From IMG/VR virus record IMGVR_UViG_3300029181_000054: a DNA stretch of 5,772 nt; one strand, 5' to 3'. Source of the stretch: a virus. Lineage: Duplodnaviria; Heunggongvirae; Uroviricota; Caudoviricetes. A model generated the notes under the pieces. The model was not told the origin of the DNA. It made no database searches and saw nothing but the letters and a program-made list of their open reading frames with translations. Made by a program: the position numbers and the translations under genes. Shown here piece after piece: positions 77-5,186 of the stretch; the first letter of the stretch is position 1; every line of letters starts with the position of its first letter.

Positions 77-862
77 TCATGCTGCCACCTTCTGCTCAGT
101 GGCTTTCTGTTTCAGGAATCCAAGAGCTTTCACTGCTTCGGCCTGTGTCAGTTCTGACGATGCGCGAATGTCGCGGCGAAATATCTGGGAACAGAGCGGC
201 AATAAGTCGTCATCCCATGTTTTATCCAGGGCAATCAGCAGAGTGTTAATCTCCTGCATGGTTTCATCGTTAACCGGAGTGATGTCGCGTTCCGGCTGAC
301 GTTCTGCAGTGTATGCGGTATTTTCGACAATGCGCTCGGCTTCATCCTTGTCATAGATACCAGCAAATCCGAAGGCGAGACGGGCACACTGAATCATGGC
401 TTTATGCCGTAACATCCGTTTGGGATGCGACTGCCACGGCCCCGTGATTTCTCTGCCTTCGCGGGTTTTGAATGGTTCGCGGCGGCATTCATCCATCCAT
501 TCGGTAACGCAGATCGGATGATTACGGTCCTTGCGGTAAATCCGGCATGTACAGGATTCGTTGTCCTGCTCAAAGTCCATGCCATCAAACTGCTGGTTTT
601 CATTGATGATGCGGGACCAGCCATCAACGCCCACCACCGGAACGATGCCGTTCTGCTTATCAGGGAAGGCGTAAATTTCTTTCGTCCACGGATTAAGGCC
701 GTACTGGTTGGCGACGATCAGCAATGCGATGAACTGCGCATCGCTGGCATCACCTTTAAATGCCGTCTGGCGAAGAGTGGTGATCAGTTCCTGTGGGTCG
801 ACAGAATCCATGCCGACACGTTCAGCCAGCTTCCCTGCCAGCGTTGCGAGTGCTGTACTCAT
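77..862 (-). CDS. bet: Bet (Red-beta) single-strand annealing recombinase
   Basis: 261-aa ORF whose sequence ([82 protein letters not shown]...) matches lambda Bet essentially over its full length from memory. Five-nt gap to gam stop, as in lambda. Confidence 0.97.
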
Positions 863-867
863 CCGTT

Positions 868-1164
868 TTATACCTCTGAATCAATATCAACCTGGTGGTG
901 AGCAATGGTTTCAACCATGTACCGGATGTGTTCTGCCATGCGCTCCTGAAACTCAACATCGTCATCAAACGCACGGGTAATGGCTTTTTTGCTGGCCCCG
1001 TGGCGTTGCAAATGATCGATGCATAGCGATTCAAACAGGTGCTGGGGCAGGCCTTTTTCCATGTCGTCTGCCAGTTCTGCCTCTTTCTCTTCACGGGCGA
1101 TCTGCTGGTAGTGACGCGCCCAGCTCTGAGCCTCAAGACGATCCTGAATGTAATAAGCGTTCAT
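868..1164 (-). CDS. gam: Gam, RecBCD inhibitor (98-aa GamS-length form)
   Basis: 98-aa [24 protein letters not shown]...[10 protein letters not shown] matches lambda Gam from memory. AGGAG Shine-Dalgarno (window 1170-1174 complement) 5 nt upstream of ATG 1162-1164. The in-frame upstream extension has no Met and reaches a stop after about 19 codons, so only the short form can be made. Confidence 0.95.
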
Positions 1165-1239: not shown

Positions 1240-1530
1240 TTAGTGATTGAGGCCGTTACCGCGTCCGTCGAGAAAAACTTCCACGAGCAAATCACGGGTA
1301 TAAGTGCGCTCGATGCCGCGATGCAGATAAAGCCGTCCGCGTAAATTAGCTGATGCAGTCCAGGTACCATCTTTGTGTTTGACCAGCATTCCTGGCATGA
1401 CCGCACCGCGATTAACGGTCTGCGTTCCGTAATGTTGATGAACCATAAAAACTCCTGCCCGTAAGCTGGGCTGCTGAACATATAGAGACTTCTGCGCGTA
1501 TTCAGGCGGTGGATGGCCGCCGGTTGTCAT
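1240..1530 (-). CDS. Hypothetical small protein, first ORF of the putative pL operon (N/kil position); start uncertain
   Basis: Open frame 1240-1650 on the minus strand. Candidate starts: ATG 1444-1446 with a strong AGGAG Shine-Dalgarno 5 nt upstream (68 aa, [35 protein letters not shown]...); ATG 1528-1530 with a weaker GAGG-type site (96 aa); TTG 1648-1650 or GTG 1615-1617, which would add an arginine-rich N-terminus (RGVKRTRERR). No family recognised. Confidence 0.45.
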
Positions 1531-1668
1531 AACTAAGCCGCCTCGTTGAAGCGACTGAGGTATAAAGTGTTGTGTTGATTTCAGCTGGTCACACCGACGT
1601 TCACGCGTCCGTTTCACCCCTCGCACTCCCCGAAGCCTGCTGAAATTCAAACTGCGGATCTAAGCGGT

Positions 1669-1718
1669 CATCGCAACGGTGAAACAGGTGGTTACCGTAT
1701 CGTTGTGTCGTTGCGATG
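1669..1718 (-). other. Perfect 10-bp inverted repeat (CATCGCAACG / CGTTGCGATG) with 30-nt spacer in the putative pL leader; potential RNA hairpin or protein binding site
   Basis: Window 1669-1678 CATCGCAACG and 1709-1718 CGTTGCGATG are exact reverse complements. The element begins right after the predicted pL start and ends just before the in-frame stop that opens the downstream ORF. Confidence 0.4.
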
Positions 1719-1721
1719 AAT

Positions 1722-1800
1722 TTATTTAAAACTATAGTTGTTTTATCGTCAACAACAAAAGTTGTTTTATCGGTTGTTTTAAATATAACTGGTTGTATTT
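1722..1800 (-). promoter_or_regulatory. Candidate OL operator cluster and pL promoter (leftward)
   Basis: GTTGTT motifs at 1737-1742, 1761-1766, 1773-1778 (and GGTTGTA 1791-1797), plus an inverted AACAAC at 1751-1756 forming GTTGTT-N8-AACAAC; the same half-site forms the palindrome between cI and cro. Minus-strand -35 TTGACG (window 1747-1752), 17-nt spacer, -10 TTAAAT (window 1724-1729). Confidence 0.45.
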
Positions 1801-1890: not shown

Positions 1891-1919
1891 GAAAAGAAAA
1901 CCCGGCGCGGTTGCCGGGT
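1891..1919 (-). terminator. Intrinsic (rho-independent) terminator downstream of the lipoprotein gene
   Basis: On the minus strand: GC-rich stem CCCGGC / GCCGGG (window 1901-1906 and 1913-1918) with a 6-nt loop, followed by TTTTCTTTTC. Starts 8 nt after the lipoprotein stop codon (1927-1929). Confidence 0.7.
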
Positions 1920-1926
1920 ATGATTA

Positions 1927-2307
1927 TCAGTCAGCCCAACCTGATTTCGAGTTTATTTGGGTTTCTGACATTGTGTATTTCTTAATCGTGTCATCGTTAA
2001 AAAGAATAGTAAGTTCTTTTTTCGTACCGTTCGTTCCATTATGGAATAATCCATAGAATGGAATAAAAGTGGTGCCATTAACTTTTACTTTTGCAAAGGC
2101 GTACTTCCAGATCTCCTTTCCACTGTCAGTATATGAAACAGCATCAGGAGAACCAAAGTAAGATTTAACCTCATTCTTGGTTGTTTTACCTTCCCGAAGT
2201 TTAGACTGGACACTAATTTCAGTTTCATTTTTGAGTTGCTGGTTGCCTGAAGAAGCACACCCAGCCAATACAGATGCCATCATGGCAGCGATTAGGATTT
2301 TTCTCAT
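1927..2307 (-). CDS. Small secreted lipoprotein (126 aa), AT-rich moron in the rexAB position; function unknown
   Basis: N-terminus MRKILIAAMMASVLAGCASS has a positively charged n-region, a hydrophobic core and a canonical lipobox LAGC (Cys17), with Ala at +2. The mature part has a pattern (SKLREGKTTKNEVKSYFGSPDAV ... LTILFNDDTIKKY) loosely reminiscent of BamE/SmpA-OmlA-type small lipoproteins; this is my recollection, not a search result. Sampled 60-nt segments are about one third GC, against more than half in bet. Confidence 0.85.
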   Translation of the reverse strand: MRKILIAAMMASVLAGCASSGNQQLKNETEISVQSKLREGKTTKNEVKSYFGSPDAVSYTDSGKEIWKYAFAKVKVNGTTFIPFYGLFHNGTNGTKKELTILFNDDTIKKYTMSETQINSKSGWAD

Positions 2308-2536: not shown

Positions 2537-3226
2537 TTAACCATGCTTCCTGTACGTCTGCGGCATGCTTCCAATGACCTTACCGAATATGAACACCCGG
2601 TTCATCTCGTCTTTCTCGATCGGGTCCCACGGCGAGTAGCTCTTGTTATCAGAGATAACCAGCAGCTTATCCTTCATCATTTGAAGACGTTTTACATGGG
2701 CAGTGTCGTCGTACAGAAACGCATAGATGCCATCACCGTCGAAAGATTTAACAGTGATATCAACGAACAGCAGGTCACCTGGTTCGATCGTCCCTGACAT
2801 GCTGTCACCTCGCACGTTAATGATGCGGATATTTTCCGCCTTCCTGCCATCGAACATGTGACGAGCATCGTCAAACGAGTACTCAACCGAGCGTAGAACT
2901 TCTACAAACTCACGGTTGATTACACCTGGCCCGGCACTGACTTCTATATCAAGAACGTCAATTTTGAAGTATTTGGAATGGCTGACAGTTGATTGTATTG
3001 GTTGCACTGTACTGTCTGACATATTTCCAACGCCAGAAGATAACCATTCTGCGCGCACACCCAAAGCGTTCGCGATCTCCACGATTTTAGTTGTTTGGTT
3101 AGCTTTCCCTGTTTCGATTTTCTGAATAGCAGCCTGGCTAACCCCGACCAAATCCCCAAGCGCCTTTTGTGTAAGGCCTCGCGCTAATCTGGCTTCTTTA
3201 AGTCTTTCTGAGAGTGTTGTTTTCAT
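2537..3226 (-). CDS. cI: CI-type prophage repressor: N-terminal XRE/Cro-CI helix-turn-helix and C-terminal S24 (LexA-like) autopeptidase domain
   Basis: 229 aa. N-terminal LTQKALGDLVGVSQAAIQKIETGK is a typical HTH. C-terminal RGDSMSGTIEPGDLLFVD (catalytic Ser) and VKRL (catalytic Lys) are S24 motifs, with a candidate Ala-Gly cleavage site in VSAGPG. Divergent from a cro-like gene across a 104-bp operator region. Not lambda cI. Confidence 0.93.
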   Translation of the reverse strand: MKTTLSERLKEARLARGLTQKALGDLVGVSQAAIQKIETGKANQTTKIVEIANALGVRAEWLSSGVGNMSDSTVQPIQSTVSHSKYFKIDVLDIEVSAGPGVINREFVEVLRSVEYSFDDARHMFDGRKAENIRIINVRGDSMSGTIEPGDLLFVDITVKSFDGDGIYAFLYDDTAHVKRLQMMKDKLLVISDNKSYSPWDPIEKDEMNRVFIFGKVIGSMPQTYRKHG

Positions 3227-3330
3227 AGATCAAATGTACAACCAAGGTTTTATTTCATCAAACGAAAATGGTTGTTGACTAAAAACAACCATAGTTTTAA
3301 TCTTGATTCGGATTAACCACGGAGGTTGTT
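3227..3330. promoter_or_regulatory. OR region: divergent pRM / pR promoters with palindromic operator(s)
   Basis: Perfect 25-bp palindrome ATGGTTGTT-gactaaa-AACAACCAT at 3268-3292 overlapping a plus-strand -35 TTGACT (3275-3280), with -10 TAATCT (3298-3303) and GGAGG Shine-Dalgarno at 3321-3325 before cro ATG 3331. A second, weaker site around 3236-3253 (ACAACC, palindrome AACCAAGGTT 3240-3249). Candidate minus-strand pRM: -35 TTGATG (window 3256-3261), -10 TACATT (window 3233-3238), which places the start at about the cI ATG (leaderless, as for lambda pRM). Confidence 0.55.
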
Positions 3331-3561
3331 ATGAACCCAGCAATCAAAACAGCGATCAATATCGTTGGTTCACAAAAGAAACTAGGCGATGCCTGCGAAG
3401 TTTCACAGCAGGCCGTCTATAAGTGGCTTCACAACAAAGCAAAGGTATCCCCTGAACATGTCGGCAGCATTGTTACGGCTACTGGTGGAGTTGTGAAGGC
3501 ATACCAGATTCGCCCGGATCTTCCGAAGTTGTTTCCACACACCGAAAAGAACGCAGCTTAA
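3331..3561 (+). CDS. cro: Cro-like HTH regulator of the YdaS family
   Basis: 76 aa, first gene rightward of the operator region, strong GGAGG Shine-Dalgarno. AIKTAINIVGSQKKLGDACEVSQQAVYKWL ... IRPDLPKLFP resembles my recollection of E. coli Rac YdaS (AIELAGGSQSALARLLGVSRQAVHQW ... RPDLW). Confidence 0.85.
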   Translation: MNPAIKTAINIVGSQKKLGDACEVSQQAVYKWLHNKAKVSPEHVGSIVTATGGVVKAYQIRPDLPKLFPHTEKNAA

Positions 3562-3573
3562 ATTTCCATTTCA

Positions 3574-3586
3574 CGCTCTTTAACAA
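3574..3586 (+). promoter_or_regulatory. boxA antitermination element (nutR-like position, immediately downstream of cro)
   Basis: CGCTCTTTAACAA at 3574-3586 matches the consensus boxA (rrn-type GCTCTTTAACAA; lambda nut boxA CGCTCTTA) and sits 13 nt after the cro stop, where nutR lies in lambda. No boxB-like hairpin is evident downstream. Confidence 0.55.
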
Positions 3587-3630
3587 TAAGCAATCAACTT
3601 AACAGTCAATTCAAACTAAAGGAGTCAATT

Positions 3631-4170
3631 ATGCAACCACTTACATACCAACAGACTAGCGGATTTATTCCGACTGCGGTGATAAATCGTTCTCAAACAA
3701 AACAAGCTCCAGGCCACGAAAAAATCCGTGATGCCGTCCGCGCCTGGTCGGCTGTAGATAATCAGGATGTCGTTGCCGCACTCATTGTGAATGAGTATCG
3801 GGAGCAGGGCGACGGCACCATCGATTTCCCTGATGATGTCAGCCGTGCACGCCAGAAGCTGTTCCGCTTCCTCGATAACAAATTCGATTCTGAAAAATAC
3901 CGAAATAACGTGCGTGAACTGACCCCGGCAATTCTGGCGGTACTACCGCTGGAATATCGCGGTTACCTGGTTGAGCAGGATAGCTTCATGACTCGGTTGG
4001 CTGAAATGGAAAAGGAACTCAGTGAGGCAAAACAGGCTGTCATTCTCAACGCACCACGCCACCAGAAACTGAAGGAAATGAGTGAAGGTATTGTGTCGAT
4101 GTTTCGTGTGGACCCGGATCTGGCTGGTCCATTAATGGCGATGGTGACCACCATGCTGGGGGCAATATGA
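3631..4170 (+). CDS. YdaT-family protein (CII-position regulator of YdaS/YdaT-type immunity regions)
   Basis: 179 aa with an AAGGAG Shine-Dalgarno. VAALIVNEYREQGDG and LTPAILAVLPLEYRGYL parallel VANAITEEYLRQGGG and LIPAILAILPRELR of E. coli Rac YdaT as I recall it. Sits between the cro-like gene and O, where cII lies in lambda. Its stop overlaps an upstream ATG in the O frame (ATGA at 4167-4170). Confidence 0.8.
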   Translation: MQPLTYQQTSGFIPTAVINRSQTKQAPGHEKIRDAVRAWSAVDNQDVVAALIVNEYREQGDGTIDFPDDVSRARQKLFRFLDNKFDSEKYRNNVRELTPAILAVLPLEYRGYLVEQDSFMTRLAEMEKELSEAKQAVILNAPRHQKLKEMSEGIVSMFRVDPDLAGPLMAMVTTMLGAI

Positions 4171-4256: not shown

Positions 4257-5186
4257 ATGGCAAACACTGCTGAGATATTCAATTTTCCAGTGCCGGATGC
4301 GGCACAAAAGGAGCCGCGCGTGGCAGATCTCGATGATGGTTATACGCGCATTGCAAATGAGTTGCTGGAAGCTGTGATGCTGGCCGGATTAACACAGCAC
4401 CAGCTTCTGGTCTTCCTGGCTGTCATGCGCAAAACATATGGCTTTAATAAAAAACTGGATTGGGTGAGCAACGAGCAACTTTCCGAGTTGACCGGGATAT
4501 TGCCGCACAAGTGTTCTGCTGCAAAAAGTGTTCTGGTAAAGCGTGGGATTTTTATTCAGAGCGGGCGGAATATCGGCATTAATAATGTGGTCAGTGAATG
4601 GTCAACATTACCCGAATCAGGTAAGAAAAATAAAGTTTACCTGAAAGAGGTAAATTTACCTGAATCAGGTAAGAAAAGTTTACCCAAATCAGGTAAAGGC
4701 ACTTACCCGAATCAGGTAAACACAAAAGACAAACTAACAAAAGACAATATAAAACCTTTTTCGTCCGAGAATTCTGGCGAATCCTCTGACCAACCAGAAA
4801 ACGATCTTCCTGTGGAGAAACCAGATGCTGCAATTCAGAGCGGCAGCAGGTGGGGGACAGCAGAAGACCTGACCGCCGCAGAGTGGATGTTTGACATGGT
4901 GAAGACCATCGCGCCATCAGCCAGAAAACCGAATTTTGCAGGGTGGGCTAACGATATCCGCCTGATGCGTGAACGTGACGGACGTAACCACCGCGACATG
5001 TGCGTGCTGTTCCGCTGGGCATGCCAGGACAACTTCTGGTCCGGTAACGTGCTGAGTCCGGCCAAACTCCGCGACAAGTGGACCCAGCTCGAAATCAACC
5101 GAAACAAGCAACAGGCTGGCGTGACAGCCGGCAAACCAAAACTCGACCTGACGAACACTGACTGGATTTACGGGGTGGATTTATGA
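4257..5186 (+). CDS. O: Replication initiator O (origin-binding protein), chimeric: non-lambda N-terminal region, lambda-like C-terminal region
   Basis: Start chosen at ATG 4257-4259 (GGGAGG Shine-Dalgarno 4245-4250) because MANTAEIFNF...VADLDDGYTRIANELLEA aligns with the lambda O N-terminus MTNTAKILNF...VADLDDGYARL. The open frame extends upstream to ATG 4167, an alternative start 30 codons longer. The C-terminal part (SGSRWGTAEDLTAAEWMFDMVKTIAPSARKPNFAGWANDIRLMRERDGRNHRDMCVLFRWACQDNFWSGNVLSPAKLRDKWTQLEINRNKQQAGVTAGKPKLDLTNTDWIYGVDL) is near-identical to lambda O from memory. The stop overlaps the P start (ATGA). Confidence 0.92.
   Translation: MANTAEIFNFPVPDAAQKEPRVADLDDGYTRIANELLEAVMLAGLTQHQLLVFLAVMRKTYGFNKKLDWVSNEQLSELTGILPHKCSAAKSVLVKRGIFIQSGRNIGINNVVSEWSTLPESGKKNKVYLKEVNLPESGKKSLPKSGKGTYPNQVNTKDKLTKDNIKPFSSENSGESSDQPENDLPVEKPDAAIQSGSRWGTAEDLTAAEWMFDMVKTIAPSARKPNFAGWANDIRLMRERDGRNHRDMCVLFRWACQDNFWSGNVLSPAKLRDKWTQLEINRNKQQAGVTAGKPKLDLTNTDWIYGVDL
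4608..4720 (+). repeat. ori iterons inside the O gene: five copies (one degenerate) of a 16-bp dyad-symmetric core TACC(C/T)(G/A)AATCAGGTAA
   Basis: Cores at 4609-4624 (TACCCGAATCAGGTAA), 4638-4653 (TACCTGAAAGAGGTAA, two mismatches), 4657-4672 (TACCTGAATCAGGTAA, a perfect palindrome), 4681-4696 (TACCCAAATCAGGTAA) and 4704-4719 (TACCCGAATCAGGTAA), at 19-29 bp spacing. They translate as the repetitive LPESGKK linker of O. Confidence 0.85.
4721..4765. other. AT-rich (A-rich) region flanking the iterons; putative DNA-unwinding part of the phage origin
   Basis: CACAAAAGACAAACTAACAAAAGACAATATAAAACCTTTTT lies directly right of the last iteron. Lambda ori has the same layout of iterons followed by an AT-rich segment within O. 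Confidence 0.6.

What the first reader, a model, noticed from the sequence alone, without database searches (positions are those of the whole stretch)
3574..3586. Consensus boxA just downstream of cro with no recognisable boxB
Seen: CGCTCTTTAACAA sits 13 nt after the cro stop. Established: boxA (rrn consensus GCTCTTTAACAA; lambda CGCTCTTA) is the NusB/NusE-binding part of nut sites, and lambda nutR lies between cro and cII. Here the following 45 nt before the next gene contain no GC-rich boxB-like hairpin, and no clear boxA was found in the leftward leader. Inference: antitermination here may use a boxA-dependent mechanism with an atypical partner element, or the boxB is too divergent to see by eye.
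Basis: partly seen in the sequence, partly recalled or inferred. Interest (0 to 1): 0.5.

Follow-up and report, generated by a model that had tools for sequence, protein, structure and literature searches.

The report
Orphan boxA after cro, hairpin deleted
A perfect copy of the RNA signal that recruits the host factors NusB and NusE sits just after the cro gene of this E. coli phage; the phage has no N protein, no left-hand nut site, and has lost the neighbouring hairpin by a 12-base deletion, so the signal acts alone or not at all.

Summary
CGCTCTTTAACAA lies at 3574-3586, 12 nt after the cro stop. It is the only match in the window to the functional boxA consensus GYTCTTTAANA (0.01 expected by chance). 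The next 44 nt are unstructured. The window is 100% identical to phage PhiR26_1.

It is not a nut site. There is no N gene: the Arg-rich ORF upstream of kil carries a stop codon in 19 of 47 variants. The pL leader has no boxA.

The closest Cro relatives carry a cro-linked element: perfect boxA, a 19-21 nt spacer, then a GGCUGA-N4-UCAGCC hairpin whose loop varies freely. I found no N gene in this clade either, and one member has an HK639-type putL on its left arm. BoxA is strongly conserved there (12 of 13 columns invariant, against 31% of cro third-codon positions).

The window's allele is a 12-nt deletion between TTAACAG repeats that removed the hairpin. This allele is in 1468 of 1515 E. coli genomes carrying the element and in all six isolated phages.

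Best reading, inferred and untested: boxA works alone, as in rrn and suhB, loading Nus factors and making pR transcription resistant to Rho. A functionless remnant is nearly as likely. Interest is moderate.

The parts
3574..3586 (+). boxA, CGCUCUUUAACAA. It is a perfect match to the rrn-type core GCUCUUUAACAA and to GYTCTTTAANA.
   Evidence: It is conserved in clade relatives: 12 of 13 columns are invariant.
3331..3561 (+). cro, a YdaS-family HTH protein of 76 aa. The boxA element is genetically linked to this gene module.
   Evidence: Pfam PF15943 at 6.6e-17 and PHROG 35. Relatives keep boxA after cro whether the next gene is cII or ydaT.
3562..3573 (+). Non-conserved linker between the cro stop and boxA.
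   Evidence: This stretch differs completely among clade members.
3587..3598 (+). Retained 5' part of the A/C-rich spacer (UAAGCAAUCAAC) that separates boxA from the hairpin in relatives.
   Evidence: Alignments A2 and A3.
3599..3607 (+). Deletion scar. A single TTAACAG repeat (3599-3605) remains, plus the surviving 3' arm CAGUC (3603-3607) of the lost hairpin. The sister allele has ACTGATTAACAG inserted here.
3562..3630 (+). Untranslated cro-ydaT gap of 69 nt. It is G-poor (6 G, 15 C) and unstructured, which is rut-like composition.
   Evidence: G fraction is in the lowest 1% of 69-nt windows and C-G excess is at the 95th percentile.
3619..3624 (+). Shine-Dalgarno AAGGAG of the ydaT-type gene, 32 nt after boxA.
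   Evidence: Sequence; inferred.
3631..4170 (+). YdaT-family CII analogue, 179 aa. Homology with 4A7-type phages, which lack boxA, begins exactly at its start codon.
   Evidence: PF06254 at 4e-30 and PHROG 163. The homology break is at window 3630.
3275..3303 (+). Probable pR (TTGACT, 16-17 nt, TTAATC/TAATCT). It would produce the transcript that carries boxA.
   Evidence: Sequence and analogy with pL. Inferred; the consensus scan did not list it.
1724..1752 (-). Probable pL (TTGACG, 17 nt, TTAAAT), with a start site near 1718.
   Evidence: Sequence. The 5' leader is homologous to the annotated pL region of HK639. Inferred.
1447..1718 (-). pL leader of about 272 nt. It has no boxA, no boxB and no conserved ORF, so there is no nutL.
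1240..1446 (-). kil (KilR-like), the first real gene of the pL operon. No N gene precedes it.
   Evidence: PHROG 294 matches residues 60-136 only. Third-position bias is seen only in this part. The PhiR26_1 annotation has no N.

Best explanation
Shown: the 13-mer is a genuine boxA, the RNA signal bound by the host NusB/NusE (S10) pair. It was inherited as the 5' half of a cro-linked element (boxA, then a 19-21 nt A/C-rich spacer, then a stable hairpin GGCUGA-N4-UCAGCC) found downstream of YdaS-type cro genes in lambdoid prophages in which I found no N gene. In this lineage a 12-bp deletion between TTAACAG repeats removed the hairpin. The phage has no N gene and no nutL, so this is not an N-utilisation site.

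Inferred: the boxA still works alone, as in rrn operons and the suhB leader. When RNA polymerase transcribing from pR passes cro, NusB/NusE bind the nascent boxA. Together with NusG, NusA and SuhB they stay tethered to the polymerase. This sequesters the NusG C-terminal domain and covers a G-poor, rut-like, untranslated 69-nt gap. Rho then cannot terminate before or within ydaT-O-P. No phage protein would be needed.
For: Identity:
- The motif matches the consensus exactly, against 0.01 expected by chance.
- It sits in the canonical position after cro.

No N system:
- The PhiR26_1 annotation has no N.
- The Arg-rich ORF is interrupted in 19 of 47 variants and has no codon bias.
- PHROG finds only Kil.
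- The pL leader has no boxA.

The element in relatives:
- 30 loci (19 distinct sequences) carry boxA + spacer + hairpin. 92% of stem cells are paired, and two pairs change on both sides (CG/UA and GC/AU).
- The loops vary freely (GAAA, GGAA, GUAA, GCAA, UUCG, UUCU, UUAG, AUUA), unlike an N-specific boxB.

No N gene found in the clade:
- No pL-proximal ORF hits N-like PHROG 271, while the control from L130 does.
- There is no second hairpin copy on the left arm.
- L120 carries an HK639/HK022-type putL on the left arm.

Selection on boxA in that clade:
- 12 of 13 columns are invariant, with unconserved flanks. Only 21 of 68 cro third positions are invariant, and the longest invariant run in cro is 11 nt.

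Precedent that boxA alone is recognised and acts:
- suhB and CKO_00699 (PMC5725501).
- rrn, where boxB matters little (PMC12360218).

Context:
- The gap is G-poor and unstructured.
- In lambda, boxA lies inside rutA.
Against: - Sister phages with the same left arm and the same ydaT-O-P module (4A7, Perceval, D2, HK639-like) have a 30-nt cro-ydaT spacer and no boxA at all. They are viable isolates. BoxA is therefore not needed for this module set.
- Loss of the hairpin in 97% of E. coli copies and in all six isolates shows that the full element is dispensable for growth.
- Within this lineage every copy is about 98% identical. Retention of boxA there says nothing about selection.
- rrn-type complexes act poorly on intrinsic terminators, and terminator-like sites exist further down the PhiR26_1 right arm (L001 11374-11390 and 11828-11842).
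- There is no experimental datum for this phage.
Confidence: 0.42

Rival explanations
1. Functionless remnant. The cro-linked boxA-hairpin element was already crippled by the 12-bp deletion. The intact boxA persists only because the lineage is young and has spread clonally. NusB/E may bind it, but with no consequence for the phage.
For: - The deletion allele is in 1468 of 1515 genomes and in all six isolated phages.
- All copies are 95-100% identical, so there has been no time for decay.
- BoxA-less sister phages with identical flanking modules are viable.
- One decaying copy (L031) has lost both boxA (G to T) and the hairpin.
Against: - BoxA is under clear purifying selection in the clade where I found no N gene.
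- BoxA function in rrn and suhB needs no hairpin (PMC5725501; PMC12360218).
- The match is perfect, whereas many N-dependent relatives tolerate deviations such as TATCA, TAAACA and TTTTACA.
Confidence: 0.32
2. suhB-like repression. NusB/E bound to boxA, looped to the polymerase, inhibit translation initiation of the CII analogue ydaT (Shine-Dalgarno 32 nt downstream). The untranslated, rut-like RNA then lets Rho terminate. This would tune the Cro:YdaT ratio and the lysis-lysogeny choice.
For: - In suhB and CKO_00699, a boxA up to 100 nt from the Shine-Dalgarno represses translation and promotes Rho termination (PMC5725501).
- Here boxA is within 50 nt of the ydaT start, which meets that paper's search criterion.
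- The gap is G-poor with C in excess.
- In lambda the same position holds the rut sites of tR1.
Against: - In the relatives the element sits in the slot that nutR or putR occupy in other phages, which suggests antitermination.
- Terminating before O-P would block replication.
- There is no direct evidence.
Confidence: 0.14
3. Canonical N/nut system with a cryptic boxB and an unrecognised N protein.
For: - BoxA is in the nutR position.
- An Arg-rich peptide (KRTRERR) is encoded just downstream of pL.
- More distant Cro relatives do have N, nutL and nutR.
Against: - There is no hairpin in 3587-3630.
- The pL leader has no boxA.
- The Arg-rich ORF has a stop in 19 of 47 variants and no coding signature.
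- No N-like PHROG or Pfam hit was found.
- The hairpin of the closest relatives has a freely varying loop and no left-arm copy.
Confidence: 0.03

Closest known systems
Lambda nutR (boxA + boxB, with N, NusA/B/E/G)
   Same: BoxA lies a few nucleotides after the cro stop, in the pR transcript, within a rut-like region ahead of the CII-type gene. The motif here is the consensus form of lambda's CGCUCUUA.
   Different: There is no boxB, no N gene and no nutL. The nearest relatives have a hairpin 19-21 nt away (8-9 nt in lambda) whose loop is not conserved.
rrn operon leader boxA (rrn antitermination complex: NusA/B/E/G, SuhB, S4)
   Same: The core GCUCUUUAACAAU is identical (rrn sequence recalled from established knowledge). 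BoxA is sufficient there and boxB matters little. The action is against Rho-dependent termination and needs no phage factor (PMC12360218).
   Different: No boxC-like sequence was identified here. The element lies between two protein-coding genes of a phage, not ahead of a structural RNA. Function here is untested.
suhB / CKO_00699 5'-UTR boxA (Baniulyte et al. 2017, PMC5725501)
   Same: It is a stand-alone boxA that matches GYTCTTTAANA, lies within 50 nt of a start codon and overlaps a pyrimidine-rich, G-poor stretch.
   Different: In those genes the outcome is repression with promoted Rho termination. The sign of the effect here is unknown.
HK022 putR / HK639 putL (protein-independent antiterminator RNAs)
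   Same: These also occur in lambdoid phages that lack N, and putR occupies the same slot just after cro. A clade member (L120) pairs a put-type left arm with the boxA-hairpin element on the right.
   Different: There is no sequence or structural similarity to put RNA. BoxA works through Nus factors, whereas put binds the RNA polymerase beta' zinc-binding domain directly (PMC9378689).

Membership tests
N-utilisation (nut) site of lambdoid phages | boxA consensus in the early transcript just after cro | tested here: met
   Exact CGCTCTTTAACAA at 3574-3586, 12 nt after the cro stop.
N-utilisation (nut) site of lambdoid phages | boxB stem-loop a short distance downstream of boxA | tested here: not met
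   No stable structure in 3540-3660 (-5.6 kcal/mol, z +1.07). The homologous hairpin is deleted.
N-utilisation (nut) site of lambdoid phages | phage-encoded N-type arginine-rich antiterminator as the first pL gene | tested here: not met
   Only Kil is found after pL. The Arg-rich extension has a stop in 19 of 47 variants and no codon bias. There is no N in the PhiR26_1 annotation. The positive control L130 hits PHROG 271.
N-utilisation (nut) site of lambdoid phages | matching second site (nutL) in the pL leader | tested here: not met
   No boxA with 3 or fewer mismatches on the minus strand of 1240-1760. N-dependent relatives do have one.
Stand-alone Nus-factor boxA (rrn leader, suhB type) | perfect match to the functional consensus GYTCTTTAANA | tested here: met
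   GCTCTTTAACA at 3575-3585, with 0.01 expected by chance. The consensus is from PMC5725501.
Stand-alone Nus-factor boxA (rrn leader, suhB type) | lies in RNA made by host RNA polymerase, with no dedicated phage partner | tested here: inconclusive
   It is downstream of the probable pR in the same orientation, with no terminator in between. No partner gene was found. The transcript itself was not observed.
Stand-alone Nus-factor boxA (rrn leader, suhB type) | NusB/NusE (and SuhB) binding, and a nusB-dependent effect on Rho termination or translation | not testable with these tools
   Needs ChIP, reporter fusions, and nusB, nusE and rho mutants.
put RNA (HK022/HK639) | about 70-nt two-stem RNA with the conserved GAACGGC...GGCGGG..CAGGA..GGCAAU sequence | tested here: not met
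   Nothing like it after cro or in the pL leader. BLAST against HK022 and HK639 hits only the promoter-proximal 41 nt and a hairpin upstream of kil.
cro-linked boxA-spacer-hairpin element (defined here from relatives) | boxA 7-16 nt after a YdaS-type cro | tested here: met
cro-linked boxA-spacer-hairpin element (defined here from relatives) | hairpin GGCUGA-N4-UCAGCC (GACUG-AUUAA-CAGUC in the E. coli sister allele) 18-21 nt after boxA | tested here: not met
   A 12-nt deletion leaves only the 3' arm CAGUC at 3603-3607.

The most novel reading that the evidence does not exclude
In lambdoid phages with YdaS-type Cro that lack an N gene, a consensus boxA just after cro is the right-operon antiterminator. 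It works with a loop-indifferent hairpin or, as here, without one. It borrows the host's rrn-type Nus complex (NusB/E/G/A, SuhB) to make pR transcription Rho-resistant without any phage protein. That would be a third early-antitermination strategy beside N/nut and put RNA. T7-like Klebsiella phages, which carry the same consensus boxA in their host-transcribed early leader, may use the same strategy.
Probability: 0.3. Interest if true: 0.7.

Novelty: new variant of a known kind. Interest (0 to 1): 0.45.

Why it matters
Early antitermination in lambdoid phages is explained in textbooks by N/nut, with HK022 put RNA as the one exception. This prophage type is in about 28% of complete E. coli genomes, including O157:H7 and O26 strains. 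It has neither system on its right arm, only a perfect boxA.

If boxA acts alone, phages can use the host's ribosomal-RNA antitermination machinery directly. Nus-factor mutants or SuhB levels would then influence prophage induction and the lysis-lysogeny choice through the CII analogue YdaT.

If it is inert, the locus is a dated example of how module exchange and micro-deletions dismantle a regulatory site. The natural allele pair (with and without the hairpin) and the boxA-less sister phages give ready-made controls for experiments.

Tried and rejected
- Rfam at permissive thresholds on the window and on three relatives found nothing relevant. Neither put nor nut is represented as a family hit.
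- Folding of the gap for a cryptic boxB found none.
- The Arg-rich ORF as N was rejected.
- A put-like RNA in the pL leader was looked for. The 1718-1669 hairpin and downstream folds have weak z-scores (-1.2 to -1.9) and no compensatory changes. There is no similarity to HK022 or HK639 put.
- The Rac prophage of K-12 was tried as a model. Its ydaS-ydaT gap is 22 nt without boxA, and its leader is unrelated.
- The INPHARED phage collection was searched for the intact hairpin element. There was no hit. Klebsiella phage ST101-KPC2phi6.1, the closest isolate by Cro, has no boxA.
- The supplementary table of boxA hits in Baniulyte et al. does not list this site.
- King et al. 2011 on HK639 put is not held in the library.
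- Population data within the lineage are too uniform to test selection on boxA.

Full report
**What the window is.** The 5772 bases are 100% identical to Escherichia phage PhiR26_1 (PV340555.1), a lambdoid phage related to the Bievrevirus group. The gene order is:
- bet, 77-862 (-)
- gam, 868-1164 (-)
- a KilR-type kil, 1240-1446 (-)
- a ~272-nt pL leader, then pL/oL near 1720-1800
- a lipoprotein moron, 1927-2307 (-)
- cI, 2537-3226 (-), then oR/pR
- a YdaS-family cro, 3331-3561 (+)
- a 69-nt gap
- a YdaT-family CII analogue, 3631-4170 (+)
- O and P

- CGCTCTTTAACAA is at 3574-3586, 12 nt after the cro stop.
- It is the only exact match in the window. The functional consensus GYTCTTTAANA of Baniulyte et al. 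(PMC5725501) matches once, against 0.01 expected.
- The gap does not fold: -5.6 kcal/mol, z +1.07.
- Rfam finds nothing.
- The leftward leader has no boxA, even allowing three mismatches.
- The position is the canonical one. In lambda, boxA starts 8 nt after the cro stop and lies inside the annotated rutA.

**There is no N.** PhiR26_1 has no annotated N. The only ORF after pL is 1240-1650 (-).
- Residues 60-136 are Kil (PHROG 294). The Arg-rich N-terminal extension (…RGVKRTRERRCDQ…) matches no family.
- Across 47 distinct variants of this region, changes in the kil part are mainly at third codon positions. The extension shows none of that bias (11, 11 and 12 variable sites at positions 1, 2 and 3).
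- 19 of the 47 variants carry an in-frame TAG at 1557.

The extension is therefore not a conserved coding sequence.

**What Cro relatives show.** Cro homologs at 50-86% identity were collected from 35 species-representative genomes.
- In 15 of them, plus two degenerate cases, a boxA follows cro by 7-24 nt. It is then followed by a boxB-like hairpin, for example a lambda-like GCUCUGAAGAAGAGC in a Serratia prophage, and a classical cII.
- These phages also have a matching boxA+boxB on the left arm.
- They encode N-like proteins with arginine-rich motifs. The L130 example hits PHROG 271, 'anti-termination protein N-like'.

So this Cro family is often linked to a genuine nutR.

**The closest relatives are different.** Cro proteins 79-88% identical to the window's come from Citrobacter, Kosakonia, E. 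coli metagenomes and IMG/VR (30 loci, 19 distinct sequences). They are followed by:
- a perfect boxA (GCTCTTTAA[C/A]AAT);
- a 19-21 nt A/C-rich spacer;
- a hairpin (C/U)GGCUGA-N4-UCAGCC(G/A).

Properties of the hairpin:
- The stem is almost invariant. 92% of cells are paired, and two pairs change on both sides (CG to UA, GC to AU).
- The loop varies freely, even between near-identical phages: GAAA, GGAA, GUAA, GCAA, UUCG, UUCU, UUAG, AUUA. That is the opposite of an N-specific boxB, where the loop carries the specificity.
- The element precedes either cII (PF05269) or ydaT (PF06254), so it travels with cro.

Evidence that this clade has no N system:
- No pL-proximal ORF hits the N PHROG, and none looks like an arginine-rich antiterminator.
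- The hairpin has no second copy on the left arm.
- One member (L120) has an HK639/HK022-type putL in its pL leader.

Within this clade boxA is a clear phylogenetic footprint. Twelve of 13 columns are invariant and the flanks are unconserved. Only 21 of 68 cro third-codon positions are invariant, and the longest invariant run in cro is 11 nt.

**What happened in this window.** A minority E. coli allele (L005, L018, L031) has GACUG-AUUAA-CAGUC 18 nt after boxA. It aligns with the hairpin of the other clade members and includes a compensatory GC-to-AU pair.
- The window lacks exactly 12 nt (ACTGATTAACAG) lying between two TTAACAG direct repeats. Only one repeat (3599-3605) and the 3' arm CAGUC (3603-3607) remain.
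- Comparison with the other clade members makes the hairpin allele ancestral.
- Among complete E. coli genomes, 47 carry the hairpin allele and 1468 the deletion allele.
- All six isolated phages with this cro carry the deletion.
- Homology with the 4A7-type sister phages begins exactly at the ydaT start codon (window 3630). Those phages, and HK639, have a 30-nt cro-ydaT spacer with no boxA.

**How it most likely works.**

Shown:
- The site is a bona fide boxA.
- It is orphaned: no boxB, no N, no nutL.
- It descends from an element that is under selection in phages in which I found no N gene.

Established elsewhere:
- A consensus boxA is bound by NusB/NusE on its own (Nodwell and Greenblatt 1993, cited in PMC12360218).
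- It is sufficient for Nus-factor action at rrn, suhB and CKO_00699, and the sign of the effect depends on context.

Inferred: here NusB/E load on the pR transcript and, with NusG, NusA and SuhB, protect the polymerase from Rho across the G-poor (6 G, 15 C), unstructured, untranslated gap and beyond.

I give this 0.42. A functionless remnant is nearly as likely (0.32), for three reasons:
- boxA-less sister phages are viable;
- the hairpin was lost without visible cost;
- the lineage is too uniform to show selection.

suhB-like repression of ydaT translation gets 0.14. A hidden N/nut system gets about 0.03.

**Limits.**
- The absence of N in the clade rests on ORF, PHROG and motif scans of flanks up to 5-10 kb. 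An unrecognised protein partner cannot be excluded.
- The direction of the 12-nt indel is inferred from comparison with the other clade members.
- pR and pL are assigned by sequence only.
- Nothing about binding or read-through was measured.

Noticed in passing
window 1447-1718 (- strand); central part 1566-1699: The pL leader is about 272 nt long, has no conserved ORF and is conserved across immunity types. Its central cassette is shared only with 4A7-type phages. Sister phages have an HK639/HK022-type putL in the same slot (L120 1856-1926, minus strand). It may be an undescribed antiterminator or regulatory RNA. Folding z-scores are weak and I saw no compensatory changes.
   Followed up: partly
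window 1447-1650 (- strand): An Arg-rich ORF extension (…VKRTRERRCDQLK…) runs in frame with kil and is annotated as part of Kil in PhiR26_1. Nineteen of 47 variants have a TAG at 1557. In five variants the GTG at 1617 is ATG, and all five also carry the stop, which leaves a 20-aa peptide at most.
   Followed up: yes
window 1505-1521 (- strand): The hairpin GGCGGCCAUCCACCGCC just upstream of kil is homologous to a terminator annotated in HK639 (L127 9105-9133). Here it lacks the U tract (UGAAUACG follows instead).
   Followed up: partly
L141 736-764 (Klebsiella phage vB_KpnP_IME205, T7-like); also L139, L149, L150, L168, L170, L191-L196, L204, L213: T7-like Klebsiella phages carry the same consensus boxA (CGCTCTTTAACAA) about 400-800 nt from the genome end, upstream of the ocr-like gene. 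That places it in the early region, which in T7-like phages is normally transcribed by the host polymerase. It looks like another stand-alone boxA in phages with no N.
   Followed up: partly
L121 ~1796, L122 ~1796, L123 ~1929, L128 ~2436, L131 ~1860, L133 ~1546 (- strand): The pL leaders of the clade where I found no N gene carry an imperfect boxA-like CCTGCT(T/C)(T/A)TTAACAA. In several it is followed by conserved GUUUAGACCC and a small hairpin (CACG-ARAAA-CGUG or CGCA-CAAA-UGCG). L089 and L102 have the same leader with a perfect boxA.
   Followed up: no
L111 and L114 (Xenorhabdus prophages), both arms; also L109, L137, L182: A third nut-like RNA type: boxA followed about 35 nt later by the conserved CCCU(A/G)GCAAA(U/C)(U/C)GAAAU(A/G)GCGCC. 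In L111 and L114 it is present after cro and after pL.
   Followed up: no
window 4609-4722: Four iteron-like repeats, TTACC(C/T)(G/A)AATCAGGTAA, lie inside the O gene and are probably the replication origin. A weak chance Rfam hit (rliD) falls on them.
   Followed up: no
window 1900-2307 (- strand): A lipoprotein moron (126 aa, BamE-like, PHROG 3135) with its own strong terminator-like site (1919-1900) sits between cI and pL, in the position of lambda rex.
   Followed up: no
window 3268-3292: A 9-bp-stem palindrome, ATGGTTGTTGACTAAAAACAACCAT, overlaps the pR -35. Related ACAACC/GGTTGT half-sites recur at oL (1740-1800). These are probably the CI/Cro operators.
   Followed up: no
L127 13911-13970 (HK639): HK639 is annotated with an 'M3-like RNA' right after its YdaT-type gene. 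It has no boxA after cro, and I could not find what M3 refers to. The window has no counterpart, because ydaT overlaps O.
   Followed up: no
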